Assembly: GCA_002753735.1 (NCBI GenBank)
Contig: PEAN01000009.1
Span: 15,926-79,925 of the forward strand
Source of the DNA: Magnetococcales bacterium DCbin4
GTDB lineage: Bacteria; Pseudomonadota; Magnetococcia; Magnetococcales; UBA8363
Reading direction: 5' to 3'
DNA: 64,000 bases
This document shows positions 134 through 63,078 of the stretch, piece by piece; position 1 is the stretch's first letter; each line of letters opens with the position of its first letter. The notes under the pieces are model-generated. The model searched no databases. It saw only the letters and a program-made list of their open reading frames with translations, and was not told where the DNA came from. The position numbers and the translations under genes are program-made.

Positions 134-364
134 ATGCAAACGCTGACCCGAATCACCTTGGATCCTGATCGGATGGGGGGAAAACCATGTATTCGCGGAA
201 TGCGGGTTACAGTGGGAACCATCATTGGTTTGATGGCCTCCGGCGCTTCAGTTGGTGAAGTATTGGAGTGCTATCCTTATCTTGAAGCCGAAGACATCCA
301 GGAAGCTTTGGCCTACGCGGCCTGGAGAACGGAAGAGGTGGAAGTAAACCTGGTTGCCTCATGA
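134..364 (+). CDS. DUF433-family small protein, putative antitoxin
   Basis: 76-aa ORF with an ATG start. GGKPCIRGMRVTV...EVLECYPYLEAEDIQEALAYA fits the DUF433 pattern as I know it. Its stop overlaps the next ORF start (ATGA at 361-364). Confidence 0.75.
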   Translation: MQTLTRITLDPDRMGGKPCIRGMRVTVGTIIGLMASGASVGEVLECYPYLEAEDIQEALAYAAWRTEEVEVNLVAS

Positions 365-4069: not shown

Positions 4070-4667
4070 GATCAGGTCTCAAAAGGGTCAAAAATCGTCA
4101 GTGAATTGACGGCCATCCAACACATCATGGTAAAACAGAAAATGTTCAAATGCTACACGGATCAATCGATTTCGTCGATGACGTTGATCTCGCCAATCTC
4201 AATCAGGAATTCCAACCATTCCTCATAATCGTCAAGTTCTCTGAGTTTGGCCAATTCGGTAGGCTCAATGTCAAATTTCATGGTGCGGCACCCCTCGGCG
4301 TTTGGAATCATTTATATGATGATATTTGTGAGGGGTTATGCAATTAACGTACCTTAAATGAGCAGGTGATGTCGGTGATTTCATGCGCCATCATGGGTTG
4401 ATTGTGATGAATGTATATTATTATCATGTACAATTAGCATGAGCGTTCAAGCCATTTTTTCGGGTGTGAAATTTATGACGCAGGTCAACATAATCAATAT
4501 CAAAATGTTACAATCCATTCGCCCATGAAGGAAATATCTGATAACCCATGGCTCATGTGAAAAATCGATTGAAAATCGAACCTCAATGGTGTTCAATGTT
4601 CTTAAAAAGGCGTAACGAATTGTAAGTGAATCCTTGTTCCTTTCGGGGGGGAGCTGGGTTGAGTTGA

Positions 4668-7589
4668 ATGTCTTTGGTAAAACAGCTTTCGCAATGGATC
4701 ATGGCGTTTGGTGTGCTGCTTTTTTCCGGATGCCTGGTGCTGTTGCATTTTCACCAGGAACTGGACCGGCAGCAGATGCTGCAAGTCCAGGCCAATCAAA
4801 TCCTTGACCTGATTTTTCAATATCGGGCCACGGCAACTCCAGGCAACAGGGAGGGTTCGACCAACCCCTGGTGCATGGCGACGCGCCATTTTGGAACAGG
4901 GTCGAAACATTCCTTTATCATCAAGGATTTAAGTCTTCATCCCCTCAATCCTTTGAATTATCCTTCGTCTCAGGAACGCAAACTGTTTGCCGCCCTGGGA
5001 TCACAAAAGCTCGCGCCGACTTCCGATGGCCACATCACCGTTGAAGGGATCCGCTGGTATGTTCAGGCGCGCCCGGTACACTACGCACCGGAGTGTCTGG
5101 GGTGCCATGAAGAAATCAAAGGAGTCCTCGGCAAGGGAAGTTCAGCTTCAGACGGTATAACGTCCGCTCCATCGGTCATGTCCGCTACCCTGGTGTTCCT
5201 GGACCTGACATCGTATGGCAGATTTGATTTTCTTCTTTTGGATACAACAACGCTGGTCCTGGCTGGATGGGTGACATTTTCCTGTCTGCTGTTGTGGCTG
5301 TTGATCCGAAGGTGGGGGATTTTTTCGCTGACGAGGATGACCCGTGAGATGGAGTCCCTGATCACGGTTCCAGACCATGAACCATCCAGCATGACGGTTC
5401 CCGTCGAATTGGAGCGTCTGTACCAGATGTTCCAGAATCTCTCTCATGACCTGCAACATGCACAATCCTCCTTGAACGCGGGACTCAAGGAGTTGGAGGA
5501 GGAAGAAAACCGGTTTCGTGCGCTGACACAGTCGGCAACGGATGCCATCATTTCGGCGGATGAAGAAGGTGTGGTCACCTCGTGGAATCGGGGGGCGGAG
5601 CGGCTATTCGGCTATCAGGAACAGGAAATCATCGGCAAACCGGTTGCCATGCTGGTTCCCGCCAAATCCCTTTCGGCACACCTGAATGGCTACGCAGCCG
5701 CGGTCGTCGCCGGATTCACCCGCCGGCGTGAAGAAACCTTCGAACTTCATGGGGTGCATAAAAATGGCAACATTCTTCCCCTTGAGGCGGCTCTGTCCAC
5801 CTGGTCGCTCGGTGGGCATCGCCATTTTTGCGCCATCATGCGCGATATCAGCAAACGCAAAAGAAATGCAGAAAAAAGCCATCGCGATTTCATGTCCCGC
5901 GTCGCCATCAACAATATTCTTGAAGTGGCACTCAAGCCAATCTCCCTCAATGAAAAACTGACCAAATCGTTGCAGATCCTCCTGGCGGTCCCATGGCTTG
6001 CCTTGCAATACAAAGGTTCAATCTTCCTCATGAATTCCAAGACTGGAAAATTGGAGATGATTGTGGAACATGGTCTCGCCGATCAGGTCAAGGCAAGTTG
6101 CCGGGAAGTCTCCATGGGATTTTGTTTGTGTGGCCGGGCGGCCTCAACCCAACAATTGGTGTTTTCCTCCACCGTGGATGAACGTCATTCCGTTTTGTTC
6201 GAAGGAATGGCCGATCATGGACACTATTGCGTCCCGATCCTGTTGGGGGATCGACTTCTGGGTGTCGTCAATCTTTATCTCCAGGTCGGTCATCTTCGGG
6301 ATGTCGAAGAAATTCGGTTCTTGGAAACCGTGGCCCAAACCCTGGCCGGCATCATCGACAGAAAAATGACCGAACGCAAGTTGCGCTATCTGTCTCAGGC
6401 CCTGGAACAAAGTCCCGTCAGTATCATCATCACCGATACCCAGGGGCAGATCGAATACGTCAATCCAACCTGTTGCCGGGTTTCCGGTTATGAGGCACAT
6501 GAACTTTTGGGCAAAAATCCCAGAATCTTCAATTCAGGTGAGATGCCCGACAGCATTTACGAAACTTTGTGGAATACCATCCTGGCGGGCGACGTTTGGC
6601 ATGGAGAACTGCATAACCGTAGGAAAAATGGTGAGTTTTTCTGGGAAGATGCCTCCATTTCCCCCATCCGTTTTGAAAACGGGGTCATCCGTTTCTTTTT
6701 GGCCGTCAAGGAAGATATCACGCAACGCAAGCACCTGGAAAAATCCTTGTCGGAATTGTTGAGCACCCTCGATTTCCGGGTGATGGAACGGACACGGGAA
6801 TTGAACGCCAAGGTCGAAGAACTTGAACATGCACGCAACGAACTGGTGAAAAGTGAAAAAATGGCATCCCTGGGACGGTTGGTTGCAGGGTTCGCCCACG
6901 AAATCAATACCCCGATCGGCGTTGCCATCACCGGATTCTCCCTGGTCGGGGAGACCGTGCGTTCCATGGAACACATGTTGCGCCAGGAAGAAGTGCAGGA
7001 AGAGGACCTGCAAACGGCAATCGCAACCATTCGTGAAGCTTCCGATCTCGCCCTGACCAACATCTCCCGGGCGGGAGAACTTGTCGCCAGCTTTAAAAGA
7101 ACTTCGGTCGATCAAAGTTCCGATATTCGGCAACCGTTCGATGTCCGTGAAGTGGTCATGGATGTCGTGCGTTCGCTTCATAATCAACTTAAAAAAACAA
7201 ATATTGTCATTCACGTCGTCATTGAACCTTCCTTGAAAGTGATGAGTTGGCCAGGAACCTTGGAACAAATCCTGACAAACTTCATCATCAACAGCCTGAC
7301 TCATGGGTACCAGGAAGAAAACCCCACCGGGAAGATTATTATTTCTGCAACAATTACAAACAACCGGCTGTGTCTGGATTATTCCGACGACGGTCGTGGC
7401 ATGGAAGAGTCGGTGCGGGGCCTGGTGTTTGAGCCGTTCTTTACGACGACCCGACATCATGGTGGGAGTGGTTTGGGACTCTATCTATGTTACAATATCG
7501 TCACCTCCAAATTGAATGGAACCATTACATGTGAAAGTTCACCGGGCCAGGGAACTCAGTTTCACATCACTTTTCCCATTTCGGAATGA
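4668..7589 (+). CDS. Sensor histidine kinase: TM, CxxCH haem sensor domain (DUF3365-like), TM, PAS, GAF, PAS, DHp, HATPase
   Basis: 973 aa. CLGCH lies at nt 5094-5108. PAS signatures end in DISKRK and DITQRK. The H-box is FAHEINTPIG, and the G-boxes are DDGRGM and GGSGLGL. Confidence 0.85.
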   Translation: MSLVKQLSQWIMAFGVLLFSGCLVLLHFHQELDRQQMLQVQANQILDLIFQYRATATPGNREGSTNPWCMATRHFGTGSKHSFIIKDLSLHPLNPLNYPSSQERKLFAALGSQKLAPTSDGHITVEGIRWYVQARPVHYAPECLGCHEEIKGVLGKGSSASDGITSAPSVMSATLVFLDLTSYGRFDFLLLDTTTLVLAGWVTFSCLLLWLLIRRWGIFSLTRMTREMESLITVPDHEPSSMTVPVELERLYQMFQNLSHDLQHAQSSLNAGLKELEEEENRFRALTQSATDAIISADEEGVVTSWNRGAERLFGYQEQEIIGKPVAMLVPAKSLSAHLNGYAAAVVAGFTRRREETFELHGVHKNGNILPLEAALSTWSLGGHRHFCAIMRDISKRKRNAEKSHRDFMSRVAINNILEVALKPISLNEKLTKSLQILLAVPWLALQYKGSIFLMNSKTGKLEMIVEHGLADQVKASCREVSMGFCLCGRAASTQQLVFSSTVDERHSVLFEGMADHGHYCVPILLGDRLLGVVNLYLQVGHLRDVEEIRFLETVAQTLAGIIDRKMTERKLRYLSQALEQSPVSIIITDTQGQIEYVNPTCCRVSGYEAHELLGKNPRIFNSGEMPDSIYETLWNTILAGDVWHGELHNRRKNGEFFWEDASISPIRFENGVIRFFLAVKEDITQRKHLEKSLSELLSTLDFRVMERTRELNAKVEELEHARNELVKSEKMASLGRLVAGFAHEINTPIGVAITGFSLVGETVRSMEHMLRQEEVQEEDLQTAIATIREASDLALTNISRAGELVASFKRTSVDQSSDIRQPFDVREVVMDVVRSLHNQLKKTNIVIHVVIEPSLKVMSWPGTLEQILTNFIINSLTHGYQEENPTGKIIISATITNNRLCLDYSDDGRGMEESVRGLVFEPFFTTTRHHGGSGLGLYLCYNIVTSKLNGTITCESSPGQGTQFHITFPISE

Positions 7590-7593
7590 ATGA

Positions 7594-9165
7594 ATGAAAA
7601 TCATCCGTAAATCCAATGTCCAACCGGTTGCCGGTGAATCCCCTCCGATGAGGGACCATACCTCCTGGACGATTCTTGTTGTTGACGATGATCCCGATGT
7701 ATTGGCCATTACCCGGATCAGTTTGAAGGATTTCCGGTTTTCCGGACGCGGGGCGCGTTTGTTGTTTGCCCAAAGTGCCAAGGAGGCGTTGGAGATCTAT
7801 CGCAATGAACCCGGGATCGCCCTGGCTCTGATCGATGTGGTCATGGAAACCGATGATGCTGGATTGAAATTGGTCCAAACCATCCGGGAAGAGTTCCAGG
7901 ATCACACCATCCGCCTGATCATCCGTACCGGCCAGCCGGGTCATGCCCCTGAACGATATGTCATCGACAATTATGATATTGATGATTACAAGGAAAAAAC
8001 AGAACTGACCTCCATCAAGCTGTATACCACGGTCCGTTCCGCGCTCAAATCCTATCGCGATCTGCAATTGATCGAAACCAGCCGCAAAGGTTTGGAGATG
8101 GTACTCAATGCCGCGCCGGGAATGTATCTTCATCCTTTGGGAGAAACCTCCAATTTCTTCAGGGAAGCATTGTCTCAGGTGGTCCGTTTGTGTGAGGTGA
8201 CCTGTCACCATGAGAATCCGGTGTCTCCGATTTCGGGTTTTATCGCTACCCATGATCATTGTGTCCTGACACTGCAATGCCGTCATGGTCAGGTTTCCAT
8301 GGATGATCTGGCGGTCAAGTCGTTGGGGGAACGGCTGGGAAACAGGGTTGCTGGTGAAGGGATGATGTTGGATGTTGCGGGACAGATTATCCTCCCCTTG
8401 ATGATTCAGCATAAAATAATCGGGGTGATTTATCTGGAACACGTTGGAACCCTGAGCGAAAATGAGCGTTCCTTGTTGGAAGTGTTTTCCATTCAATGTG
8501 CCAATGCCCTGGAAAACATGCGATTGTATGATGCCTTGGAGGGGGCCAACCGTAATGCCATGCGCATGTTGGCGGTCGCGGCTGAATTCAAGGACAGCGA
8601 AACCGGGGATCATGTCAAGCGTCTGGCCCGTCAGACGGTCGAAACCGCCTTGGAACTGGGATGTTCAAACGAGGACGCCATGGAAATGGGACAGGCCAGT
8701 ATGATGCATGACATTGGCAAGATCGGTATCCCGGATGCGATTCTGCTGAAACCGGGCCGCTTGACCGATGATGAGTTCGAGGTGATCAAATCGCATCCGG
8801 GGATCGGTGCCGCCATTCTTGCGGAGGATGAACGGTTCAAAGTGGCGCTTCAGGTCGCTTTGTCCCATCATGAACGTTGGGATGGGACGGGTTATCCGAT
8901 GGGCCTCAAGGGTGAGGAAATTCCCTTGTCAGCCCGGATCGTCGCCGTCGTGGACGTGTTCGACGCCTTGGTGAGTGTTCGCCCCTACAAAAAAGCGTGG
9001 AGTGTCGCTCAGGCGTTGGAGGAAATCCAACGGGGATCTGGAAGTCATTTCGATCCCACGGTGGTTGAGGCGTTCCTTAAAACCCACCACAATCGGGGGG
9101 AAAAGAAGAGCGGTAACCCGTTTAATGAAATGTGGTCCCGGCGGGCGATGGACCGGAAAAAATAA
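7594..9165 (+). CDS. Response regulator with REC, a GAF-like linker (DUF3369-type) and an HD-GYP phosphodiesterase domain
   Basis: 523 aa. The REC domain includes VVDDDPD and DVVMETDD. The HD-GYP motifs are HDIGKIGIPD and HHERWDGTGYP. It starts 4 nt after the kinase stop. Confidence 0.9.
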   Translation: MKIIRKSNVQPVAGESPPMRDHTSWTILVVDDDPDVLAITRISLKDFRFSGRGARLLFAQSAKEALEIYRNEPGIALALIDVVMETDDAGLKLVQTIREEFQDHTIRLIIRTGQPGHAPERYVIDNYDIDDYKEKTELTSIKLYTTVRSALKSYRDLQLIETSRKGLEMVLNAAPGMYLHPLGETSNFFREALSQVVRLCEVTCHHENPVSPISGFIATHDHCVLTLQCRHGQVSMDDLAVKSLGERLGNRVAGEGMMLDVAGQIILPLMIQHKIIGVIYLEHVGTLSENERSLLEVFSIQCANALENMRLYDALEGANRNAMRMLAVAAEFKDSETGDHVKRLARQTVETALELGCSNEDAMEMGQASMMHDIGKIGIPDAILLKPGRLTDDEFEVIKSHPGIGAAILAEDERFKVALQVALSHHERWDGTGYPMGLKGEEIPLSARIVAVVDVFDALVSVRPYKKAWSVAQALEEIQRGSGSHFDPTVVEAFLKTHHNRGEKKSGNPFNEMWSRRAMDRKK

Positions 9166-9197: not shown

Positions 9198-9227
9198 TTG
9201 CATTGAGTCTCATGATGTGCTTATATT
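9198..9227 (+). promoter_or_regulatory. Candidate sigma70-like promoter for the TIR/SLOG pair
   Basis: TTGCAT (9198-9203), an 18-nt spacer, then TATATT (9222-9227). It is only usable if the TIR ORF starts at ATG 9238 or 9265 rather than GTG 9217. A 10-bp palindrome, TGATCGATCA, lies at 9184-9193. Confidence 0.25.
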
Positions 9228-10470
9228 GCTTATTGTCATGGACTCTAATAACAGGGATCGATCCATGAGTCACCATTGGCCTACGCCTCTGAAAATATAC
9301 ATCGTTTGGCATTACGAATCTTCCGAAGGTGGGCGGATTGCCCAGGATTTGTTCCGTTTTTTCTTCCGCAACGTTGAAACTGACCGGGAAAAGGGAATCG
9401 GCATTCCTGTGTTCTACCGTCGCGGTGAACCTGGAGTGCCCATTCGTCCCATCCATGCCTCCGAAGCAACTTCTGAGGCCATTGTCGTGATTGTCCTGGT
9501 GGACGAATTTCTCATTGACGCCTGTCAAGCGGATCAAGACCGTCACTGGTTGCAGTTCATGGGCGAAACCCGCAAATGGGTTGATGAGGATCCGGTCAAA
9601 CGATTATTGCTTCCCGTTGCGCTTTGTCGCGAGGCACTTCGGGCCGGATTGCCTTCCTTGGAAAAACTCCAAGCCCATCGATGGTTTGATCGATCGGCAG
9701 AATACGGAATGGATCGTTTTTCCAAATGCATGCTCCATTTGACGATTGAGTTGACGGCGTCGATGGCTTCGCTTTTGATGTCACAGGCTTCCTCTTTTCC
9801 TGAAGATAAGCCAAAAAGAGTTCGGTTGTTTCTGAGCCATGCCAAAATCGACGGCCGCGATGTGACCTTGAATTTCAGGCAGGAGATTCAGCGAACCCGG
9901 GGGCTTTGTGACTTCTTTGACGAGCATGACCTTGACATCGGATCTGATTTTGAGTTGGCCCTTGAACATGGGGTTCACAATTCAAATGCGTTGTTGGTCA
10001 TCCTGACCGACCAGTACTCCCAGCGGGAATGGTGCTGCCGGGAAGTATTGACGGCAAAAAAGAAACATCTTCCCATTCTTCTGGCGTATGCGGTGCACCA
10101 GGAAGAGAGGCGAAGTTTTCCCTACCTTGGCAATGTTCCCTCAGTCCCGTTTTTCGCAGCGGATTCTTCCGAGGCGGTGTTGCGGGTATTGCAGCAAATC
10201 TTGAAAGAAATATTACGGATGGCGTTTTGGCGATCCAGAACGGAGCCGTTGAATGCATCCCCTGAGGCGCATGATGCGACCTGGTTTTTTCCCAATCCTC
10301 CAGAGTTGCTGACTTTGCTGCATGATTGTCATGAAAAAAGCGGTATGTTTCCAAAGAAGATCGTTTATCCCGATCCTCCTTTAAATGTTCATGAAAAAGG
10401 GGTGTTGGAGATGGTATTGCCGGGGACATCCCAACTGGTCACCTTGTCGCAATTTCTGGCCGAGGGATGA
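9217..10470 (+). CDS. TIR domain protein (C-terminal half TIR, N-terminal half possibly a second degenerate TIR-like fold)
   Basis: VRLFLSHAKIDGRD...FFDEHDLDIGSDF...LLVILTDQYSQREWCCREVL fits the bacterial TIR pattern, including the W-x-x-x-E glutamate at nt 10042-10044. The start is ambiguous: GTG 9217, ATG 9238, or ATG 9265 preceded by AGGGA. Confidence 0.65.
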   Translation: MLILLIVMDSNNRDRSMSHHWPTPLKIYIVWHYESSEGGRIAQDLFRFFFRNVETDREKGIGIPVFYRRGEPGVPIRPIHASEATSEAIVVIVLVDEFLIDACQADQDRHWLQFMGETRKWVDEDPVKRLLLPVALCREALRAGLPSLEKLQAHRWFDRSAEYGMDRFSKCMLHLTIELTASMASLLMSQASSFPEDKPKRVRLFLSHAKIDGRDVTLNFRQEIQRTRGLCDFFDEHDLDIGSDFELALEHGVHNSNALLVILTDQYSQREWCCREVLTAKKKHLPILLAYAVHQEERRSFPYLGNVPSVPFFAADSSEAVLRVLQQILKEILRMAFWRSRTEPLNASPEAHDATWFFPNPPELLTLLHDCHEKSGMFPKKIVYPDPPLNVHEKGVLEMVLPGTSQLVTLSQFLAEG

Positions 10471-10485
10471 TGATTGGAGAATCTG

Positions 10486-11310
10486 ATGTCAGATCAAAGA
10501 GTTTCTCTTGATGGGATCAGGGTTGGGTTATCGATTTCCGACAGCCCCGATTTGATCCGGTTGGGATTGGACAAGGAACATGTCCATGATGCCGTGATCA
10601 CTCTGGCGACAGCGCTGCTTGCAAAAGGGGGGGAGATCGCCTATGGCGGTGATTTGCGTCCGCAAGGTTTTACCCGAACATTGATCCGTTCAGCCCAGAT
10701 GTACAATGACACCCGCCAGGCTGGTGATTCTCGGTCTTTCGCCAAAATATTCAGCTATCTGGCTGGGGTGGTCAGACAGAATTGGACCGCATCGGATCGG
10801 GTCAAATGTCGTCGGGAATTTGAGGGGGCGGTTGCCATCATTGACGACTTTCCCGCTCCTGGAAATCCAGATCTGGTGGATCCTTGGCCCGCCTCGCTGA
10901 CTTCGATGAGGGAAAGAATCACCGATGATTGTCGTGCCTATGTGTTCATGGGGGGCCAGGTGACAAATTTCAAAGGGGCCCTACCCGGTATTGCCGAGGA
11001 AGCTTTGTTGATGTTGAAAAAAAAGAAACCCATTTATCTGGTGGGAGGCTTTGGTGGTTGTACTTCTGACCTGATCAAGTCGATCTGGGGGTTGAAACCA
11101 CCGGTCGATCTGGACCGTGAAGCGGCGAAGAATGATTTTCGCTATCTCAAGGCACTCGAACAAATTGCCCTTTATAAGGACCACTTTCCAAATAATGGTC
11201 TGACTCTGGAAGAAAATCATGCACTTGCTGCAATGGATGATTCCAATCAGTTCCTTCCCATGATTCTTCGGGGAATTTCCAAAGCGTGTCAGACTAAAAA
11301 AAATTATTGA
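10486..11310 (+). CDS. SLOG / LOG-like Rossmannoid domain protein with no additional domain
   Basis: YGGDLRPQGFT and FMGGQVTNFKGALPGIAEEALLMLKKKKPIYLVGGFGG parallel the two glycine-rich loops of LOG/SLOG proteins. ATG 10486 is preceded by GGAGA. The ORF track uses TTG 10474. Confidence 0.5.
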   Translation: MSDQRVSLDGIRVGLSISDSPDLIRLGLDKEHVHDAVITLATALLAKGGEIAYGGDLRPQGFTRTLIRSAQMYNDTRQAGDSRSFAKIFSYLAGVVRQNWTASDRVKCRREFEGAVAIIDDFPAPGNPDLVDPWPASLTSMRERITDDCRAYVFMGGQVTNFKGALPGIAEEALLMLKKKKPIYLVGGFGGCTSDLIKSIWGLKPPVDLDREAAKNDFRYLKALEQIALYKDHFPNNGLTLEENHALAAMDDSNQFLPMILRGISKACQTKKNY

Positions 11311-11453
11311 AAGAAAAAAGGGGGCTTAAGGGATTGCCCCCAGGACTTTGATTTTGATTTTAAATAAAAAGGTTTCCATGCTTAAGCTTTTGACCTTGTT
11401 TCTAAATTGATCACCATGGGGGCAATCCCTTAAGCCCCCTTTTTTCTTTCAAT
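11306..11453. mobile_element. MITE-like element, 148 bp, with perfect 37-bp terminal inverted repeats
   Basis: ATTGAAAGAAAAAAGGGGGCTTAAGGGATTGCCCCCA at 11306-11342 equals the reverse complement of 11417-11453. Each arm contains a GGGGGC/GCCCCC hairpin. The stop codon of the SLOG gene (11308-11310) lies inside the left arm. Confidence 0.7.
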
Positions 11454-35064: not shown

Positions 35065-38000
35065 TCAATGGGCAGCGGGATCCGTTTGGATTCTTGCAAG
35101 GAGTCCATGCCGTTCAAAAAAGGCATCCAACGTCTTGCCCGCATCCTCAAAATCGTAGCGGCCCACCTGGTGGCGCAGGGGCAGGAGTTCCTTTTCCATG
35201 CGTGCATCCTTCGCTGAAGTCAGGAAGGCATCGATGGCATCTTCGGTCTCCGTATCGAATTCGGCGATCATCGTCCGAATTCTCAACAAGGTTTCGAAGG
35301 CACGATCCATGGGATTCCCTTCAGTTCCTTCCGGATCAGAATGCACGGTTGTGTTCACGATTGGAAGCACGATTTGCATGGCACCGGCAAAATCGTACGC
35401 ATCAAGATGTTGCGTCACCCGGGAAAGGGTTTCAGCCAACGGATCGCTTTCGGGGATCGAAGCCCGCAGGATCGCACTCCATTCAGCCGCCTCTGAATCA
35501 TACTCTTTAATCATATCAAGCAGTTTCTTGAACCCTTCATGACCATCCGTTCGCATCTTGACCGGTGTGACCTCGGTGGGGGATGAGGTTTCGAGTCCTT
35601 TGCGGATGGCATGGATGACCGCTGAAAGCGATTGCTGCAACGAGGTCAGAATCGATTCATCCGGGTCGGTTTGTCCTTGTATGAGAAGGGTTTCAAGTTT
35701 TCCCGTCTCACTTTGCAGGGATGTGGCACCGACACTGCCCGCAGTACCTTTGAGGGTATGGGCGGTGCGAATGGCCCGTGTCCGGTCCCCTGCGGCAAGG
35801 GCACGACGAATTTCATCGACGGCATCCGCTTGATTGGTGGCGAACTTGTCGAGCAGCTTGCGATAGGAGCGCAGATTGCCACCGATGCGGTTCAAACCGG
35901 CGGCATGATCGACGCCTTCGATGCCGGGCAACGGTTCGGCCGATTCGGGTTGGGGCGTATCGGGGAAGGAGGGTTCATGGGATGGGATGCGTTCACCCGG
36001 TTGGATCCAGCGGGCGAGGGTGGCGAACAGTTCCCGGGGATCGATGGGTTTGGCCACATGGTCGTTCATCCCGGCATCCAGGCATTGTTCCCGGTCTCCC
36101 GCCATGGCGTTTGCGGTCATGGCGATGATGGGAAGATGCTGATATTTTTTAAATTTACGAATTTCTTTCGTCGCCGTGAGGCCATCCATGACCGGCATCT
36201 GGAGATCCATGAGGACGGCGTCGAAGGCTTCCTGACCCACCTTATCGACCGCGATGCGGCCATTGTTGGCGACGATGACCGTCAAGTGGGCCAGTTCCAG
36301 CAATTCTGTCGCAATCTGACGGTTGATTTCATTGTCTTCCACCAACAAAATGCGTGCTCCCCGGATGGCGGACACCTGTTCGATTCCCAAACCGTTGCTT
36401 TTGGGTTCGGTGGGATGGGTCGATCCTTCACGGCCCAAAGCTCGAAGTGTCGCATCCAGGAGGGAGGAGGCATTGATCGGTTTGGTCAGGATTCCATCCA
36501 CTTGCTGTCCCTGCATCATTGACTGCATCTCCTGTGCATCGTAGGCGGTCACGATGACGACCCTCGGAGGCCGCTTCAGGGAAGCGTCGGACTTGATCCT
36601 TCTGGTGGCGGTCATTCCGTCCATGATCGGCATTTTCCAATCCATGAATACCATCCGGTAGGGGGTTCCGTTCTGATCATGCCTCTGGATCATTTCCAAC
36701 GCTTCGGCCCCATTGGTGGCCAGTTCAACATGAAAGGAAAGGCTTTCAATCAGTCGTTGCATGATTTCGCGGGCAATGGCGCTGTCGTCGGCCACCAGTA
36801 CCGAAAGATGCCGCAGATCGGAATCGAGCATGGGGCTGGCGGGCAGTTCGTGTGCCGACCTTTTGAAGACGGCCGTAAACATGAAGGTACTTCCCTGACC
36901 CGGTGTACTCTCCACCTGGATGGTGCCATCCATCATTTCGACCAGCCGTTGACTGATGGTCAATCCCAGACCGGTACCGCCATATTTCCGGGTGGTGGAG
37001 GAATCGGCCTGGCTGAAGGATTTGAACAATTTGCCCATCTGTTCTCCGGTCATGCCGATGCCGGTATCGATGACGGAAAAACGGAGTGTGACCTGATCCT
37101 GGTATTTCTTTACGGGTTCAACCTTGATGATGATTTCGCCTTGTTCGGTAAACTTGACGGCATTGTTGGCCAGGTTGATCAAAACCTGTCCCAGCCGCAA
37201 CGCATCGCCCACCAGTGCGTTCGGGGTCTCCGGTTGGACGAATATCAGCAGTTCCAGCCCTTTTTCCCGTGTCTTGACCGTGATCAGGTTGGATAGATGA
37301 TCCAAAACCTGTTCCAATCTGAACGGAATGGCCTCCATATCCAGTTTGCCCGCCTCGATCTTGGAAAAATCGAGAATGTCGTTGATGATCCCCAGCAGGG
37401 AATTGGCAGCGGTATGGATTTTGTAGACATAACCGTGCTGTTTGGGGTTCATCTGGGTCTGCAATGCCAGGTGGCTCAGGCCGATGATCGCATTCATCGG
37501 TGTCCGGATTTCGTGACTCATGTTGGCCAGGAAGTCGCTTTTGGCCCGGGTGGCCTCTTCGGCAATCCGGCGTGCGGCATTCAGTGCCGCTTCCGAATAG
37601 TTGCGTTCCACCAGGATCGCCAGGGTATTGCCGACCGCCCTGAGAATTTCTTCTTCCCACGGAGCCTGGGGATGTCCCGCATCCACAAAAAGGGTCAGTA
37701 CCCCAAAAACCTGGTCATGGGCGCAAATGGGAACGATGTAGTGGCCATGATCCACCATCGGTTCGGATTGAATCTCGTGTCGCGCATCCAGATGGTTGGT
37801 AAAAAGAATCGTGTTGGTGGCTACGGCCTTTCCGCACAGGCATGCCTCCTTGGGAACGGTTCGGCAGGGGAATGAACTCAGGGGTGTCAGGCCACTTTGG
37901 ACGACCATTTCCAGGGTGTCACCGGCGTCGTTCATCAGCAGGATGGCCCCCTTGTTTTTAATCGCAAGAAAGGAGATGCCCAGAATGATCTCCAATGCCC

Positions 38001-38520
38001 GGGTCAGGATCGCCTCAAGGGCATTGCCATGGATTTCAATGGAAAGCAGATCCTTCAGCAGGGTTTGGCTTTCACTGGTGCGGCGCAATCGTTCTTCGGC
38101 ATTCTTCTGGGCGGTGATGTCGGTGCGGATGGAGATGAACTGGATCGGCGCACCCGCTTCGTTCATGAAGGGGACGACCGTGGCGCTGACCCAGTACAAG
38201 GGGCCATTTTTGGTGCGGTTGCAGACCTCGCCGTGCCACACCTCCCCTTTGAGGATCGTGTGCCACAATGTTTTGAAAAATGATTTGGGATGGAGTCCCG
38301 ATTTCACGATACGATGGTTGCTGCCGATCAACTCTTCCCGCGAGTAGCCGCTGATCTTGCAAAAACGGTCGTTGACATAGATGATATCGCCCTTGGCATC
38401 GGTGGCGCTGACAATGGCGTGTTGGTCCAGGGCAAACTTTTGAAAGTTCAATTCATTGATCAGCGCAAGTTGTTTTTGCGCCATGTCGGTGATGGTGTCG
38501 TCGTGCGGGATCATGCTCAT
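35065..38520 (-). CDS. Hybrid sensor histidine kinase: PAS, GAF, HisKA, HATPase, REC, REC, HPt
   Basis: H-box [11 protein letters not shown]-boxes DTGIGM and GGTGLGL. Two REC domains ([18 protein letters not shown]). HPt motif AHTLKGTAG. The alternative ATG at 38610 would overlap the ABC-F gene by 43 nt. Confidence 0.85.
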
Positions 38521-38567
38521 CGGATGATTGCCTGTTGACAAGATGGAATAGGGTCCAGCCCGTGCGT

Positions 38568-40493
38568 CTATGCGATTTGGCTTTCCAGCGAAGATGAAAG
38601 TTCTTCCCATTCTTCCATGGCGACAGCCAGACGGCTTTCACAACGTCCATGTTCGGCCAGTTGCAGGAGCAGGCGTTCCTTGTTTTCCCTGGCATGCAGG
38701 TGCGGATCCGCCAGTTGTTCCCGAATCGTGGCCAACGCCGTTTCCAATTGTTCGATCTCCTGTTCCAGGGCGCTGATCCGTTGGCGCAGATCGCGGGTGG
38801 CCAGATCCATCATCCTGCGCCGTTGTGCCGCTTCGCGACGACGATCCTTCGGATTGGATCCGGAACTGGCGTCCACCTCCTGTTCGGTCTCTTTCTGACG
38901 GGCGATCTGTTCCAGATAGTCGTTCAAATCGCCATCCCAGGGACGGACTCCGTTCTGGGCGATCAGCCAGAAACGATCACACACCGTTTCCATCAGATCA
39001 CGGTCATGGGTCACCAGGATCATCGAGCCGGAATAATCGGACAACCCTTCTTCCAACGCGGCACGGGATTCCATGTCCAGATGGTTGGTCGGCTCATCCA
39101 GCAACAACAGGTTGGGACCTGCCAGGAACAATCGGGCCAGGGCCAGACGGGCCTTTTCCCCTCCCGAAAGGACCGAAACGGTCTTGAATGCATCCTCTCC
39201 GGTGAAAAGGAATCCCCCGAGCAGGGTCCGGATCTTTTCGGTCGTCATCCCCTTTCTGGCGGCGCGTTGGGCCGATTCCATGATGGTTTCGGTGGCGATC
39301 AGGGCATCCATGGCATGCTGGGCGAAATGACCGCTCGATACCCGGTCGCCCTGAATGACGGTTCCCTGGTCGGGGGCAAGGGTTTGGTGAATGATCTTGA
39401 GCAGCGTTGATTTGCCTGCGCCATTGGGTCCCAGCAGGCCGATCCGGTCGCCCCGTTCCAGTTGCAGGTTGACCTCGGCAAACACGGAGACCGATCCAAA
39501 ACCTTTGGCGACGCCACGCAGGGTAAGGACCTCACGGGCCGAGGGAGGGGGTTCGGGAAGTCGGACCCGGTCCAGATGGCGCTCTCCCGTGGCGACCTGA
39601 ACCGGTTCGATCTTTTCCAGCCGTTTGATCCGGCTTTGTACCTGTCTGGCCTTGGTCGCCTTGGCGCGGAATCGGCGGATGAACCGCTCAAGGTGTTCGA
39701 TTTCCCGTTCCTGTTTTGCAACCAGTTTCCCCTGTTGCAGCAACCGTTCCTGCCGCATCAGCAGATAACGCTCGAAATCGACCGAGTGACGGACGACCGT
39801 CTTGCCCTCGATGGCGACCGTGACCCTGGTGGTGCGCTGGATGAATCCCCGATCATGGGAAATGATGATCAGGGTGGTGGGTGAGGATTGGATGAACCGT
39901 TCCAGCCAGACGGTCGATTCCAGATCCAGATGGTTGGTCGGTTCGTCCAACAGCAACAGGTCGGCCCGGGAAAACAACAGGCGGGCCAGGGCGATCCGCA
40001 TGCGCCATCCACCGGAAAAGGTATCCAGGGGGCGTTGTTGCTCCTCGATGGAAAATCCCAGCCCGTGCAGTATGGCACCACAACGGCTTTCGGCGCTGAA
40101 GGAACCCAGTACTTCCAGTTGGTGGTCGATCTCCCCCAGTTGTTCCACCAGCTCCCGGGTGGGGGTTTGCTGTTCCAGCAACCTTGCGTTCAACAGGGAT
40201 CGTTGCCGCCGCAACATCATCAACTCCGGATCCCCCTCCAAGGTTTCTTCAAGGATTGGGCGTTGGGAAGGGGTCAGTTCCTGGGTCAATATCCCGATTT
40301 TGATCCCCCCGGACAGGCGGATCCGTCCTTCATCGCATTCCAGGCTGCCGGCGATCATCTTGAACAAGGTGGTTTTACCGCAACCATTGGGGCCGATCAG
40401 GGCGACTTTTTCCCCCCGGTTGATGGTCAGGCTGGAAGCGGTGAACAACTGTTTCGAACCAAAGCTTTTTTGGACATCTTCGATGAAGAGCAT
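38568..40493 (-). CDS. ABC-F family ATPase (two ABC domains, no TM; Uup/YheS-like)
   Basis: 641 aa. Two Walker A motifs ([18 protein letters not shown]), two LSGG signatures and a C-terminal coiled coil. Confidence 0.9.
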
Positions 40494-55923: not shown

Positions 55924-57873
55924 TCATCCCGATCCTTCCCGGTATTCGCTCTCTTGCGGCAGGATCAAAAACCGATTCAATGCTTCGGAAGCTTCAGCGA
56001 ACGTGGTGTGGCACTGACTGAAATGATTCGCTACGATATCAAACCGGGAATGGTTCTCTTCCATGGCGTGTCCCAGTCTGGCCAGACTTACCGCTCCCAT
56101 GCTCAAACTGGAGGATTTCAAGGAATGGGCCGCGAAACTGACTCCTTGACTGTCTTGTCGTTCAATGGCCAGTTCCAGATCGGATAACAGTTTTTGCGTT
56201 TGAGTCATGAAATGATCCATCATCCGATGCGGCAGCATGGGATTGCCTTTTTGCGCCAGATTCTGGATGCAGCTGAGTGTCGACAGATCCAGGATCGGGG
56301 AAGAATGTGCGGCATCCGTGTTCACATCTTTCCTCGGATGATCCCGATCTGGTGTCGGCAGCGGCGACCGGTCTTGTGATTCATGTGTTGCGAGGGCGTC
56401 ACTTGCGGTGGTCTTGGCGATCTGATCACTTTGATCATTCGGATCAATCCAACAACGCAAAACAGGTTCCAGGTCGGTCAGGTTGAGCGGTTTTTGCAAA
56501 AAGTCATCCATACCCGCCTCCAGGCACTCCTTACGGCATTCCTGCAAAACATGTGCGGTCAGGGCGATGATGGGGGTATGCCGGTTTGTGTGTTCCAGTT
56601 CCCATTGACGCAACTGTTTGGTGGTTTCAAAGCCGTTGAGCACAGGCATTTCGCAATCCAGGAAGATGGCATCGAAGGGGGTGGGGGTGGCACGGTAGAT
56701 CGAAATGGCATCCTGCCCGTTATTGGCGACTGTCACCTGGAACCCAAACATTTCGAACATCGCTGCCGCCACTTCCTGGTTGAGATGATTGTCTTCGACC
56801 AGCAGAATCCGCCTGCCGCGAAAATCACTGTTCGATATGGATTTACGTCGGGTCGGCTGCATGGAGATGGCCTTCCGGTCCCCGGCACGTTGTTTGCCGA
56901 ACCTGGCGGTGAACCAGAAGGAGGAACCCTGGCCCGGGGTACTCTCCACCTGAAGTTCTCCGTCCATCATGGTTGCCAGTCGCCGACTGATGGCCAACCC
57001 CAGACCGGTTCCGCCGAATCTGCGCGATATCGAAGTATCTTCCTGGGAATAATCCTGGAACAACTGTTGTTGGAATTCAGGAGAAATCCCCATCCCCGTA
57101 TCGGTCACCCGGAAACGGAGCAGGGTATCGATTTCACGTTCTTCCATAACTTCCACCACCACATCAACGGATCCATTTTCGGTAAACTTGATGGCGTTCC
57201 CGATCAAGTTGAACAAAATTTGTTTCAAGCGGTGGAAATCTCCCAGCAGGTGGATGGGAACGGAATCAGTTAGTGCACAGTGGAAATCGACTTTCTTACG
57301 TCTCGCCTGCGCCATGAACATGTCGTTGAGATCAACGATCACTTCGTCCAGATCAAAACGTAACAGTTCCAGGGACAGACGACCCGCCTGCATCTTGGAA
57401 AAGTCGAGGATGTCATTGATGATTCGCAGCAGAATGCGCCCGGAACGTTGGATGGCCTCCGCATAATGGCGTTGTTGGTTGGACAGTGCTGTGTGAAGAA
57501 GCAGATCTGCCATCCCCAATACACCATTCATGGGGGTGCGGATTTCGTGGCTCATGGTGGTGAGGAAGGCGGTTTTTGCCCGATTGGCATGTTCTGCTTG
57601 TTCTTTGGCCAATTTCAAGTTGGCTTCGATACGCTTGCGCTCGGTGATATTGCGCACGATCGACCACATGGCCTCGGGTTGGTCATTATTGTCGCGCAAC
57701 AGGAAGGTTCTTATTTCCACAGGAATGCGTGTTCCATCCTTGCGAATCCATTCTTTTTCACAGACCTGGGACTTGCCATGCGGCAGGATTTGTTGCGTGA
57801 AGACCTCGTCTTCGATTATGGGCCATGTTTTTTTCCGCCAGGTCGATCCCTGCCGGAGCACGTAACTCTTCAT
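55924..57873 (-). CDS. C-terminal part of a hybrid histidine kinase (half PAS, HisKA, HATPase, REC, HPt); probably one gene with 57758-59023 disrupted by a frameshift
   Basis: H-box [11 protein letters not shown]-boxes DTGMGI and GGTGLGL. REC motif [11 protein letters not shown]. HPt motif AHSLKSSS. The N-terminus begins in the middle of a PAS fold. Confidence 0.8.
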
Positions 57874-62800: not shown

Positions 62801-63078
62801 ACATCCACCGTCATCCCTTCGATTTTGCGCTGGTCAGAAAAGGTCAGGACGACGCGGGTTTGATATTCCTCGCGCAACCATGAACGGGTCCGGGTGTTTT
62901 TTTGATTGTTTGCTGAAGAATCGGACATGGAAGGACAGGTACCCTGGCATGTTTTGGAACGGGTTGTCGAGACATGATCCCAATCGGACGGCATTGTACG
63001 CATCGATCTGGTGTTTGGGCCGGTGTTTGGGCCGGTGTTTGGGGAATTCCGGATCGGTGATCCCCCCGATTGCTTCAA
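59833..63078 (-). CDS. Hybrid sensor histidine kinase: PilZ, GAF, HisKA, HATPase, degenerate REC-like, REC, HPt
   Basis: PilZ motifs RSWLR (RxxxR) and DVSLVG (DxSxxG). H-box MSHELRTPMN. G-boxes DSGIGM and GGSGLGL. REC motif LMDLEMPEMDG. HPt motif LHTIRGIAG. The track start is a TTG, and ATG candidates are at 63003, 62994 and 62928. Confidence 0.8.
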   Translation of the reverse strand: MKQSGGSPIRNSPNTGPNTGPNTRSMRTMPSDWDHVSTTRSKTCQGTCPSMSDSSANNQKNTRTRSWLREEYQTRVVLTFSDQRKIEGMTVDVSLVGVAIQAEQEYGNDLIAQEVLLTLVPDPYGMRFPCIIVRVDGPIIAMRLHDRHAAFGMYLYQFMMVDLLAGTSSALAKAPDLASAIRVSVVNIRKYLQSEAASLWLLDPNEKELVCHACAGEHDITGMHIPVNEGIVGATFREGRGIIIDDAYSVNFFNSKVDQKTGFITRSVISAPLKIYDETVGVMMVLNKRGDGLFEGHELLVLSALATQTAMAIYNITETEKRIKADAANEAKSDFLARMSHELRTPMNAIMGLSDLALRKPVEQAHDYLRKISRASISLLRIINDILDISKIEAGRMSLEATAFRLIDTLDYIIDLFSEQVSKKNIDLILEIGSECRLALIGDPLRLEQVLINLVGNAIKFTAQGEIILRVETLATSNDWIELQFCIQDSGIGMNREQMDKIFAPFTQADASITRKFGGSGLGLAISKNLAEMMGGALHAESTEGRGTKMFFTCRFKHDHRADPSCIRLSKDQSNKRIGLFCHQNTLEHALDYFLSWLGFTAIGMSNIDEVKRMLDGQHPRGQLDLLVIDQSVLEVKGVLERAHPLTVLDHSSVPWLILSRFSEKDTASTLRLCHQRPLSLCRVVEKPLHLGELFHAILMLLGETVSADTIKRSPPVPDEEIARYFAGTRVLLVDDNAINRQVAREMLEAVGIRVTLANDGSQVVNMAKTIDPDGVHDLILMDLEMPEMDGYSATRNLRQIPAFEHVPIIAMTAHALSGVMDKCLDAGMNGHLTKPIDSLTFYQLLKQWVKTRVTAEVVPPSVPKQEPLGNAWGITETLAGIDTVGAIHRIRGNHRLFRSLLEEFYRDHAVSVAQVRKLIAEATRESIGKALTLLHTIRGIAGNISAIRVFETASALEQELKEYGSAQDGCLNDFDRALTEVLNSISNLPRAVEPSATTSDQPEVDREKLSLLIKTTAQLLRSRKMASLDSMTLLIPQLRTLSEARPFLATLEQQVDSLAFLSAVSTLEKISDILGLELNR

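What the first reader, a model, noticed from the sequence alone, without database searches (positions are those of the whole stretch)
9217..11310. TIR + SLOG two-gene module with no recognisable effector: candidate minimal, Thoeris-like nucleotide-signalling system
- **TIR protein:** in ORF 9217-10470, residues ~201-335 read VRLFLSHAKIDGRD..FFDEHDLDIGSDF..ALLVILTDQYSQREWCCREVLTAKK. This is the bacterial TIR pattern. It includes the glutamate of the W-x-x-x-E box (E276, nt 10042-10044), which corresponds to the NADase catalytic Glu of SARM1-type and bacterial TIRs.
- **Possible second TIR-like fold:** residues ~25-120 (KIYIVWHYES...AIVVIVLVDE...W) look like a degenerate second copy. The last ~80 aa are unassigned.
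- **SLOG protein:** 3-15 nt downstream, the ~275-aa ORF ending at 11310 carries YGGDLRPQGFT and FMGGQVTNFKGALPGIAEEALLMLKKKKPIYLVGGFGG. These mirror the two glycine-rich nucleotide-binding loops of LOG/SLOG Rossmannoid domains.
- **Why it stands out:** in Thoeris, a TIR protein makes an NAD-derived signal that a SLOG domain senses, and TIR-associated SLOG families have been noted in comparative-genomic surveys. Here the SLOG protein is essentially domain-only, with no SIR2, Macro, TM, nuclease or protease module that I can see. The output is therefore unexplained. Options include SLOG acting enzymatically like LOG phosphoribohydrolases, a sponge or regulator role, or a trans-encoded effector.
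Basis: partly seen in the sequence, partly recalled or inferred. Interest (0 to 1): 0.8.

Follow-up and report, generated by a model that had tools for sequence, protein, structure and literature searches.

The report
Split Thoeris TIR–SLOG module lacking sensor
These two adjacent genes are a split version of a known kind of bacterial anti-phage protein, in which a SLOG part probably senses a nucleotide alarm signal and a TIR part probably destroys NAD+; this copy is unusual only because it lacks the neighbouring small TIR genes that normally make the alarm signal.

Summary
ORF 9217/9265-10470 encodes a TIR-domain protein with an invariant WxxxE glutamate (codon 10042-10044). ORF 10486-11310 encodes a Pfam "SLOG cluster2" protein.

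The "no effector" reading is probably the wrong way round. The two proteins are collinear with about 680-aa single-chain TIR–SLOG fusions. They are also distant relatives (24-26% identity) of ThsJ, the "TIR and SLOG" protein annotated as the effector of the recently named type IX Thoeris system.

- In 80 of 80 related genomes the large TIR gene is followed by, or fused to, this SLOG.
- In 70 of 80, one to five extra TIR ORFs, mostly small ThsB-like ones, lie within 8 kb. Most of the rest carry a TIR-STAND, STAND or NTPase partner.
- The window has no other TIR gene in 64 kb.

So the pair is best read as sensor (SLOG) plus NADase effector (TIR), and the missing part is the signal-making ThsB.

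The pair looks horizontally acquired, because it has the lowest GC3 in its neighbourhood. It still seems to be under purifying selection: the TIR gene shows 6 synonymous and 0 non-synonymous differences between strains.

Verdict: a new variant of a known kind, of moderate interest. What activates a ThsB-less copy, and how ThsJ-type proteins act, remain open.

The parts
9265..10470 (+). Gene for the large TIR protein (401 aa from ATG 9265; the ORF opens at GTG 9217 and has another ATG at 9240)
   Evidence: ORF list and translation. A public protein of 401 aa is 100% identical (P0121). AlphaFold2 model: pLDDT 88.8, pTM 0.90.
9265..9798 (+). N-terminal alpha/beta domain (aa 1-178); possibly a degenerate TIR-like domain, with no catalytic Glu
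   Evidence: Beta-alpha-beta secondary structure in the model. Whole-chain Foldseek matches are to tandem flavodoxin-like proteins such as PleD and EngA. hhalign against the TIR domain is only weak, P = 0.015, but collinear. TIR_2 hits 2 of 47 members, best E 0.0016. A profile search of PDB found nothing.
9811..10164 (+). TIR domain (aa 183-300 of the 401-aa protein)
   Evidence: Pfam TIR_2 45.6 bits and TIR 31.6 bits. Foldseek matches SPARTA TIR-APAZ 8i87_A (rmsd 2.4 over 121 columns), BtpA, AbTir, SARM1 and RUN1. A profile search of PDB matches AtTIR, BtpA, Roq1, Cat1 and AbTIR.
10042..10044 (+). Codon GAA for the putative catalytic glutamate of the WxxxE motif (E276 in 417-aa numbering, E260 in 401-aa numbering)
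   Evidence: Position verified. W256, C257 and E260 are invariant in 89 family members.
10165..10467 (+). Long helix plus a small alpha/beta C-terminal subdomain with family-specific invariant motifs (RSFPYLGN, PPEL, YPDPPL..E). In the fusion proteins it joins the TIR part to the SLOG part
   Evidence: Invariant columns. Model secondary structure H302-331, then beta-alpha-beta-alpha-beta. No PDB relative by profile search. In fusions this region is directly followed by SLOG.
10477..10480 (+). Shine-Dalgarno-like GGAG, 5 nt upstream of the SLOG start codon
   Evidence: Read directly from the sequence.
10486..11310 (+). Gene for the SLOG cluster2 protein (274 aa from ATG 10486; the ORF opens at TTG 10474)
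   Evidence: Pfam PF18163, 188 bits. AlphaFold2 model: pLDDT 91.7, pTM 0.91. Top Foldseek match is the BcThsA SLOG domain bound to 3'cADPR (7uxs, E 4e-5), followed by LOG enzymes and TRPM2/4/5/8 channels. Invariant Y53, G55, R142, G156, G157, G164, E172, G190 and G191.
11314..11445 (.). Perfect 28-nt inverted repeat (arms 11314-11341 and 11418-11445). Each arm is a GC hairpin with a T6 tail on one strand, so these are probably face-to-face terminators ending the SLOG and serS transcripts
   Evidence: Sequence and exact-match check. The consensus scan did not report it. Terminator function is inferred.

Best explanation
The pair is a horizontally acquired, two-gene ('split') form of a TIR–SLOG sensor-effector of the Thoeris family. 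Its closest named relative is ThsJ of type IX Thoeris.

**Inferred mechanism**
1. The SLOG cluster2 protein binds an NAD-derived nucleotide signal, such as 3'cADPR or a related ADP-ribose derivative.
2. Probably as a stable complex with the large TIR protein, it switches on that protein's TIR domain.
3. The TIR domain carries the invariant catalytic Glu and cleaves NAD+, which arrests or kills the infected cell.

In most genomes one or more small ThsB-type TIR proteins encoded next to the pair detect the phage and make the signal. In this Magnetococcales genome no such gene lies within 64 kb. This copy is therefore a 'solo' sensor-effector that must depend on a signal made elsewhere or on another trigger.

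**Shown here:** domain identities, folds, conserved residues, fusion and adjacency statistics, absence of another TIR in the window, and signs of purifying selection.

**Inferred:** ligand binding by SLOG, NADase output, complex formation, and anti-phage function.
For: **Domains and folds**
- Pfam TIR_2 and LD_cluster2 both score above their cut-offs.
- Both AlphaFold2 models are confident.
- The SLOG model is closest to the 3'cADPR-bound SLOG domain of ThsA.
- The TIR domain is closest to NADase-type TIRs: SPARTA, AbTir and SARM1 by fold, and Cat1 and AbTIR by profile.

**Fusion proteins**
- About 30 homologues of 556-701 aa carry the large TIR protein at residues 1-385 and SLOG at about 390-690. 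This is the same order as the two genes here.
- Roughly 40% of the top 150 family representatives have the length of a fusion.

**Co-conservation**
- In 80 of 80 loci from different species the large TIR gene is directly followed by (73) or fused to (7) a SLOG cluster2 gene.

**Separate signal-makers are the rule**
- 70 of 80 loci have 1-5 additional TIR ORFs, mostly small, within 8 kb, most of them immediately upstream on the same strand.
- The seven examples of the small-TIR neighbour family tested in Pfam are ThsB_TIR and/or TIR_2.
- One is 59% identical to a type IX ThsB of Paenibacillus macerans.
- Several loci without small TIRs have other partners: TIR-nSTAND1 (L007, L069), nSTAND1 (L058), or an NTPase fused to the large TIR (L060). 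L008's single extra TIR is a TIR-WD40 protein.

**Link to the validated system**
- In B. cereus VD021 a ThsB of 258 aa is followed by a 623-aa ThsJ with TIR_2 and LD_cluster2.
- ThsJ matches our family profiles at E 1e-13 (TIR) and E 1.6e-19 (SLOG), and aligns collinearly with both window proteins.
- The preprint 10.64898/2025.12.03.692087 shows that this system defends against phage and that its ThsB makes 3'cADPR on infection.

**The solo state is real and maintained**
- Three search methods found no other TIR in the window.
- The same gene arrangement occurs in three Magnetococcales MAGs and one metagenome contig. The TIR gene shows 6 synonymous and 0 non-synonymous differences between strains.
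- All family-invariant residues are present.

**Foreign origin**
- GC3 is 0.54 (TIR) and 0.51 (SLOG), against 0.58-0.70 for the neighbouring genes.
Against: - No biochemical data exist for this family. Even for the validated ThsJ, added 3'cADPR did not trigger toxicity, so the true ligand and output are unknown.
- The window proteins are only 24-26% identical to the validated ThsJ. That protein lacks the family's C-terminal motifs.
- The SLOG keeps an Arg and Glu-Glu motif that, from my recollection of LOG enzymes (their sequences were not aligned here), resembles LOG catalytic residues. An enzymatic role therefore cannot be excluded.
- With no ThsB nearby, the proposed trigger is hypothetical.
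- The SLOG gene differs between strains by 5 amino-acid changes and a 6-aa C-terminal extension, which could mean relaxed constraint.
- A ThsB elsewhere in the genome could not be searched for.
Confidence: 0.55

Rival explanations
1. The large TIR protein senses infection and makes an NAD-derived signal. The domain-only SLOG protein is the receiver or output, acting as a LOG-like N-glycosidase that depletes or converts nucleotides, or as a buffer or sponge. On this view the pair is a complete minimal two-gene Thoeris-like system.
For: - The TIR catalytic Glu is intact.
- The SLOG retains an Arg plus PGIAEE motif and is structurally similar to LOG enzymes (5zbl, 2a33, 1rcu) as well as to ThsA.
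- Solo pairs exist: the window, L001-L003 and L005. Solo fusions also exist: L026, L039 and L074.
- 3'cADPR alone does not activate type IX toxicity.
Against: - 70 of 80 related loci carry separate ThsB-type TIRs. In the validated system the ThsB is the experimentally shown signal-maker.
- Covalent fusion of a nucleotide-sensor fold to an NADase-type domain is the usual sensor-effector design. Examples are ThsA SIR2-SLOG, Cat1 CARF-TIR (TIR part matched; CARF architecture from general knowledge), and TIR-SAVED and TIR-STING (general knowledge).
- No Pfam LOG-family hit appeared at E <= 1.
Confidence: 0.2
2. The pair is an evolutionary remnant. It is what is left of a larger Thoeris operon after loss of the ThsB genes, and it has no present function.
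For: - No ThsB lies within 64 kb.
- The location is not a defence island. The pair sits between a two-component system and serS/gyrA.
- The SLOG gene has accumulated 5 amino-acid changes and a changed C-terminus between close strains.
Against: - Both ORFs are intact and keep every family-invariant residue.
- The TIR gene shows 6 synonymous and 0 non-synonymous differences between strains.
- The SLOG gene has a good ribosome-binding site and the pair is followed by a terminator.
- Solo pairs and solo fusions recur in unrelated lineages.
Confidence: 0.12
3. The pair forms a physiological, non-immune signalling circuit. It would be co-transcribed with the upstream PAS/GAF histidine kinase and receiver-HD-GYP regulator, and would use an NAD-derived messenger in normal cell regulation.
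For: - All four genes are on the same strand with short gaps (4 nt and 99 nt).
- The only sigma-70-like plus-strand promoter hits near a gene start lie upstream of the kinase (4398-4514). No terminator-like site lies between the regulator gene and the TIR gene.
- The arrangement is conserved in the sister MAGs.
- One relative has a cNMP-binding domain fused to the large TIR.
Against: - The kinase and regulator are not associated with the pair in any of the 80 other loci.
- The pair has a distinctly lower GC3 than the kinase and regulator, which suggests separate acquisition.
- This genome is full of histidine kinases, so adjacency is likely by chance.
- The consensus promoter scan is weak evidence for this phylum.
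Confidence: 0.06

Closest known systems
Thoeris type IX: ThsB plus ThsJ ('TIR and SLOG' effector), Bacillus cereus VD021 (Yirmiya et al., bioRxiv 10.64898/2025.12.03.692087)
   Same: - The domain content and order match: an N-terminal region, then a TIR domain with WxxxE, then a SLOG that hits Pfam LD_cluster2.
- Homology is detectable by profile: E 1e-13 for the TIR part and 1.6e-19 for the SLOG part.
- Relatives of the window pair usually sit next to ThsB-type TIR genes. One of these is 59% identical to a type IX ThsB of Paenibacillus macerans.
   Different: - The window version is split into two genes.
- It is only 24-26% identical to the validated ThsJ.
- It has a conserved C-terminal subdomain (RSFPYLGN, PPEL, YPDPPL) that is not evident in VD021 ThsJ.
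- It has no ThsB gene within 64 kb.
- The mechanism of ThsJ itself is unresolved.
Thoeris type I effector ThsA (SIR2-SLOG)
   Same: - The logic is the same: a SLOG nucleotide sensor coupled to an NAD+-destroying domain.
- The SLOG model's best solved match is the BcThsA SLOG domain bound to 3'cADPR (7uxs, 8btp, 6lhx).
   Different: - The NADase module is TIR, not SIR2.
- The SLOG belongs to Pfam LD_cluster2 rather than the ThsA type.
- There is no sequence-level match to any solved SLOG.
- Sensor and enzyme are on separate polypeptides.
Thoeris type III (ThcA SLOG plus ThcB1-4 TIRs; van den Berg et al. 2024, as cited)
   Same: - Several TIR genes occur together with a SLOG protein.
- The best NCBIfam hit of the window TIR is ThcB4.
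   Different: - The score is far below the equivalog cut-off: 41 bits against 220.
- The ThcA model describes a 184-position SLOG and does not match the window SLOG at E <= 1.
Ligand-activated TIR NADase effectors (CBASS TIR-SAVED and TIR-STING, type III CRISPR Cat1 CARF-TIR, SPARTA TIR-APAZ)
   Same: - In these proteins a TIR with the catalytic Glu serves as the output, controlled by a separate sensor domain or partner.
- The TIR domain here resembles SPARTA TIR by fold and Cat1 by profile.
   Different: - The sensor here is a SLOG fold.
- No oligomerisation or filament data exist for this family.
- The comparison with TIR-SAVED and TIR-STING rests on general knowledge and was not tested here.
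LOG cytokinin-activating phosphoribohydrolases
   Same: - The Rossmannoid fold and glycine-rich loops are shared. Structural matches include 5zbl, 2a33, 1ydh and 5its.
- A conserved Arg and Glu-Glu sit in what appear, from my recollection of LOG motifs, to be analogous motif positions. This was not aligned here.
   Different: - No Pfam LOG-family match was found.
- The protein has an extra C-terminal helical region.
- It is obligately linked to a TIR protein.

Membership tests
TIR domain (Pfam PF13676 / PF01582) | Profile match above the curated cut-off | tested here: met
   TIR_2 scores 45.6 bits against 28. TIR scores 31.6 bits against 21.3.
TIR domain (Pfam PF13676 / PF01582) | Flavodoxin-like TIR fold | tested here: met
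   The AlphaFold2 model has pLDDT 88.8. Foldseek gives probability 1.00 to TIR domains of SPARTA, IL-18Rbeta, BtpA, AbTir, SARM1 and RUN1.
TIR domain (Pfam PF13676 / PF01582) | Catalytic glutamate (WxxxE) needed for NAD+ cleavage | tested here: met
   W272-C-C-R-E276, with codon GAA at 10042-10044. The residue is invariant in 89 homologues.
TIR domain (Pfam PF13676 / PF01582) | NADase or cyclase activity | not testable with these tools
   Needs an enzyme assay.
SLOG superfamily, Pfam PF18163 LD_cluster2 | Profile match above the curated cut-off | tested here: met
   188.2 bits against 25.3, covering profile positions 2-254 of 264.
SLOG superfamily, Pfam PF18163 LD_cluster2 | Rossmannoid SLOG/LOG fold with glycine-rich nucleotide loops | tested here: met
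   The model has pLDDT 91.7. Top matches are ThsA SLOG, LOG enzymes, TM1055 and TRPM channels (TRPM2/4/5/8). Y53, G55, G156, G157, G190 and G191 are invariant.
SLOG superfamily, Pfam PF18163 LD_cluster2 | Binds an ADPR-derived ligand | not testable with these tools
   Needs binding assays.
Thoeris type IX (ThsB + ThsJ) | Effector combining a TIR domain and a SLOG domain | tested here: met
   Met as two adjacent genes that are collinear with the single-chain fusions. The validated ThsJ carries TIR_2 and LD_cluster2.
Thoeris type IX (ThsB + ThsJ) | Sequence homology to the validated ThsJ of B. cereus VD021 | tested here: inconclusive
   Homology is distant but significant and collinear: family HMMs give E 1.1e-13 and 1.6e-19, and blastp gives 24% over 214 aa and 26% over 171 aa. 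This shows homology, not orthology.
Thoeris type IX (ThsB + ThsJ) | Adjacent ThsB-type TIR gene that makes the signal | tested here: not met
   phmmer with about 145 small-TIR queries and two HMMs found no other TIR ORF in the 64-kb window. The feature is present in 70 of 80 related loci.
Thoeris type IX (ThsB + ThsJ) | Protection against phage | not testable with these tools
   Needs phage challenge after heterologous expression.
Thoeris type I (ThsA + ThsB) | SIR2 (or Macro/TM) effector domain fused to the SLOG | tested here: not met
   The SLOG protein contains only LD_cluster2 and has no PADLOC hit.
Thoeris type III (ThcA + ThcB1-4) | NCBIfam equivalog models ThcA and ThcB4 above their cut-offs | tested here: not met
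   ThcB4 scores 41.1 bits against 220. ThcA gives no hit at E <= 1. Relatives score similarly low.
LOG phosphoribohydrolase | Match to the LOG sequence family | tested here: not met
   LD_cluster2 was the only Pfam family at E <= 1. The similarity is structural only.

The most novel reading that the evidence does not exclude
The ThsB-less TIR + SLOG pair may be a self-sufficient module. Either the large TIR protein's own N-terminal TIR-like domain or C-terminal subdomain detects the trigger, or the pair is wired to the co-oriented PAS/GAF kinase and receiver-HD-GYP regulator. In the second case it would work as an NAD-derived second-messenger circuit in normal physiology rather than immunity. 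That would be a stand-alone TIR–SLOG signalling unit independent of any dedicated signal-making TIR.
Probability: 0.12. Interest if true: 0.75.

Novelty: new variant of a known kind. Interest (0 to 1): 0.4.

Why it matters
TIR–SLOG proteins were named as the effector of type IX Thoeris only recently, and how they work is unknown. In the validated system the ThsB product, 3'cADPR, does not by itself trigger toxicity.

This survey adds three points:
- In the 80 genomes sampled the commoner form of this family is a two-gene split (73 split, 7 fused). Among the top 150 clustered representatives the split is nearer 55:40.
- The large TIR subunit carries two extra conserved domains.
- A minority of copies, including this one, persist without any neighbouring ThsB, and this copy appears to be under purifying selection.

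Solo copies are simple test cases. They can show whether the SLOG subunit senses a diffusible signal made elsewhere, and whether the large TIR is an NADase.

For this window alone the result is modest. It corrects the 'no effector' reading and files the locus next to a known system.

Tried and rejected
- **PADLOC:** the SLOG has no model. The TIR has only weak partial hits (PDC-S66 at 3e-10, ThsB at 5e-6), so PADLOC v2 does not recognise the system.
- **NCBIfam type III Thoeris models:** scores are far below the cut-offs, so membership is rejected.
- **N-terminal domain as a second TIR:** hhalign gives only P = 0.015. Pfam TIR_2 hits 2 of 47 members. A profile search of PDB found nothing. This is left as 'possible'.
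- **C-terminal subdomain:** no PDB relative by profile search.
- **Coupling to the upstream histidine kinase and HD-GYP regulator:** no co-occurrence in the other loci. It is rejected as a conserved feature.
- **Phage or prophage carriage:** only 2 of 2.9 million viral contigs encode a relative.
- **Locating ThsJ through the B. cereus fusion:** look-up of P0223 failed. The validated locus was reached instead through its ThsB sequence.
- **Searching the preprint's supplementary tables for the large-TIR motif strings:** nothing was found in the stored, truncated text.
- **Burroughs et al. 2015 (first SLOG classification):** not in the library. A later paper from the same group mentions 'TIR-SLOG-based antiviral systems'.


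Full report
**What is there**

The window is identical to contig JADFWW010000011.1 of a Magnetococcales MAG, GCA_015234015.1.

- Pfam places the first protein in TIR_2 (45.6 bits, cut-off 28) and TIR (31.6 bits, cut-off 21.3).
- Pfam places the second in PF18163 LD_cluster2, 'SLOG cluster2' (188 bits, cut-off 25.3).
- The likely start codons are ATG 9265 (401 aa, as in the 100% identical public protein P0121) and ATG 10486, which is preceded by GGAG.
Its codon is GAA at 10042-10044.
- No other domain was found by Pfam, PADLOC or NCBIfam.

**Structure**

AlphaFold2 models built on family alignments are confident: TIR protein pLDDT 88.8 and pTM 0.90, SLOG pLDDT 91.7 and pTM 0.91.

- The best solved match of the SLOG model is the SLOG domain of B. 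cereus ThsA bound to 3'cADPR. LOG enzymes and TRPM-family channels (TRPM2/4/5/8) follow.
- No solved structure is related to the SLOG at sequence level.
- The TIR domain (aa 183-300) matches SPARTA TIR-APAZ, BtpA, AbTir, SARM1 and plant TIRs.
- The TIR protein has two further conserved parts.
  - The first is an N-terminal alpha/beta domain (aa 1-178). Its resemblance to TIR is weak: hhalign P = 0.015, and TIR_2 hits in 2 of 47 members.
  - The second is a C-terminal helix plus a small alpha/beta subdomain. It has invariant motifs RSFPYLGN, PPEL and YPDPPL..E and no detectable solved relative.

**Family and context**

Homologues of the TIR protein align over their full length (about 390 aa). 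About a quarter of the listed hits are 556-701-aa proteins that also carry PF18163. In these fusions the TIR protein occupies residues 1-385 and the SLOG about 390-690, the same order as the two genes in the window.

- A profile search of 1.84 billion representatives finds 1,084 family members at E <= 1e-30. About 55% of the top 150 have the split length and about 40% the fused length.
- A scan of one genome per species found 390 species with a relative.
- In all 80 loci retrieved, the large TIR gene is directly followed by (73) or fused to (7) a SLOG cluster2 gene.

The two families are therefore obligately linked.

**The missing component**

Clustering the neighbouring ORFs showed one dominant extra family, present in 62 of 80 loci. 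It usually occurs as 1-3 same-strand genes immediately upstream. A more sensitive phmmer pass raised this to 70 of 80 loci with an extra TIR ORF within 8 kb.

- The seven examples tested are Pfam ThsB_TIR and/or TIR_2 proteins of about 160-265 aa.
- They are related to the ThsB proteins of type IX and type III Thoeris. One is 59% identical to a Paenibacillus macerans type IX ThsB.
- Several loci without small TIRs have other partners: TIR-nSTAND1 (L007, L069), an abutting nSTAND1 NTPase (L058), or an NTPase fused to the large TIR (L060). The single extra TIR counted for L008 is a TIR-WD40 protein.
- Common further neighbours are type I restriction-modification genes, Nmad2, MazG_C, the 5-hmdU kinase helical domain, patatin and integrases. 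This is the setting of a defence island or mobile element.

In the window, three search methods found no other TIR ORF in 64 kb. Its neighbours are gyrB, a PAS/GAF histidine kinase, a receiver-HD-GYP regulator, serS and gyrA. The closest metagenomic relative (P0122, 37% identity) and a cNMP-binding-domain variant (P0213) likewise have no small ThsB-type TIR next to the pair. The P0122 locus does carry a SEFIR/TIR-TPR protein about 5 kb upstream.

**Link to the literature**

Yirmiya et al. (bioRxiv 10.64898/2025.12.03.692087) define Thoeris type IX as ThsB plus an effector, ThsJ, annotated 'TIR and SLOG'.

- The B. cereus VD021 system protects B. subtilis.
- Its ThsB makes 3'cADPR on infection.
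- Added 3'cADPR is not toxic, so how the effector is activated is unresolved.

I located that locus through its ThsB sequence (P0253, 100% identical). The next gene encodes a 623-aa protein with TIR_2 and LD_cluster2.

- It matches the two family HMMs at E 1.1e-13 and 1.6e-19.
- It aligns collinearly with both window proteins at 24-26% identity.
- It keeps WxxxE and the PGI-EE/GG motifs, but not the C-terminal motifs of the window's family.

Type III Thoeris (ThcA/ThcB1-4) is excluded by the NCBIfam cut-offs. An earlier comparative-genomics paper already refers to 'TIR-SLOG-based antiviral systems'.

**Interpretation**

The pair is best read as a split TIR–SLOG sensor-effector. SLOG receives a nucleotide signal and the large TIR is the NAD+-cleaving output. 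This is analogous to ThsA (SIR2-SLOG) and to other ligand-gated TIR effectors. The 'no recognisable effector' puzzle is thus reversed: the effector is present, and the usual signal-maker (ThsB) is absent.

The assignment of sensor and effector roles is inferred from architecture and from the authors' annotation of ThsJ. It is not shown by biochemistry. The SLOG keeps an Arg and Glu-Glu that, from my recollection of LOG enzyme motifs, resemble LOG catalytic residues. A catalytic role therefore remains possible.

**Is the solo copy alive?**

- Both ORFs keep every family-invariant residue.
- Between two strain groups the TIR gene differs by 6 synonymous and 0 non-synonymous substitutions.
- The SLOG gene has 5 amino-acid changes, four of them in the C-terminal helical region, plus a 6-aa tail difference.
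- GC3 of the pair (0.54 and 0.51) is the lowest in the neighbourhood (0.58-0.70), which fits horizontal acquisition.
- A perfect 28-nt inverted repeat made of two hairpin-plus-T6 elements follows the SLOG gene. It probably terminates both convergent transcripts.
- The pair could be co-transcribed with the upstream kinase and regulator, since no promoter-like or terminator-like site lies between them.
- That association is not seen in any other locus, and the genome is rich in kinases.

**Verdict**

- The locus is a new variant of a known kind. It is split, only distantly related to the validated ThsJ, and lacks ThsB.
- Interest is moderate. The open questions are what activates ThsB-less TIR–SLOG modules and what ThsJ-type proteins actually do.

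Noticed in passing
window 11314-11341 and 11418-11445: A perfect 28-nt inverted repeat (AAAAAAGGGGGCTTAAGGGATTGCCCCC and its reverse complement) lies between the convergent SLOG and serS genes, with arms 76 nt apart. Each arm is a GC hairpin with a T6 tail on one strand, so the arms look like face-to-face intrinsic terminators. The consensus scan missed it, probably because its 10-nt loop exceeds the scan's 3-8 limit.
   Followed up: partly
window 134-364 and 361-729, and just left of position 1: A DUF433 plus PIN_10/DUF5615 toxin-antitoxin-like pair is present. On the full contig a 1790-aa NACHT/Metallophos STAND protein ends at the left edge of the window. These are possible defence genes about 9 kb from the TIR gene, separated from it by MFS and gyrB.
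   Followed up: no
window 4668-7589 and 7594-9165: A PAS/GAF histidine kinase and a receiver-DUF3369-HD-GYP regulator lie directly upstream on the same strand, with no predicted terminator before the TIR gene. The adjacency is conserved in sister MAGs but absent from 80 other TIR-SLOG loci.
   Followed up: yes
L087 2449-8068; L088 3099-8000; many of L009-L086: Related ThsB / large-TIR / SLOG operons are interleaved with Nmad2 (21 of 80 loci), MazG_C (14), the 5-hmdU DNA kinase helical domain (11) and UDG. They often sit beside integrases or type I restriction-modification genes. Whether these nucleotide-modification genes belong to the same system is unknown.
   Followed up: partly
L005 522-2198; L060 6975-9176; P0410, P0441, P0455, P0460, P0420: Some large TIR proteins of this family carry N-terminal additions: a cNMP-binding domain, a ParA/MinD-like P-loop NTPase, or unassigned extensions of about 360-390 aa. 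This suggests alternative inputs to the same module.
   Followed up: partly
L026 4107-6143 and 7995-10037: Two TIR–SLOG fusion genes lie in tandem in one Vallitaleaceae genome, with no small TIR nearby.
   Followed up: no
window 35065-38610, 55924-57873, 59833-63078: There are three large hybrid histidine kinases (HisKA-HATPase-receiver; two also carry Hpt, two carry GAF and one PAS). The window is unusually rich in two-component signalling genes and is otherwise ordinary chromosome: glycosyltransferases, a radical SAM enzyme and an ABC-F protein.
   Followed up: partly
L090 9491-10333 compared with window 10486-11310: Between closely related strains the SLOG protein differs by 5 residues (S140T, F218S, L228P, Y229F, K230R) and a 6-aa C-terminal extension, whereas the TIR protein is identical. 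The numbers are small, but this could reflect relaxed or diversifying selection on the SLOG C-terminal helices.
   Followed up: partly
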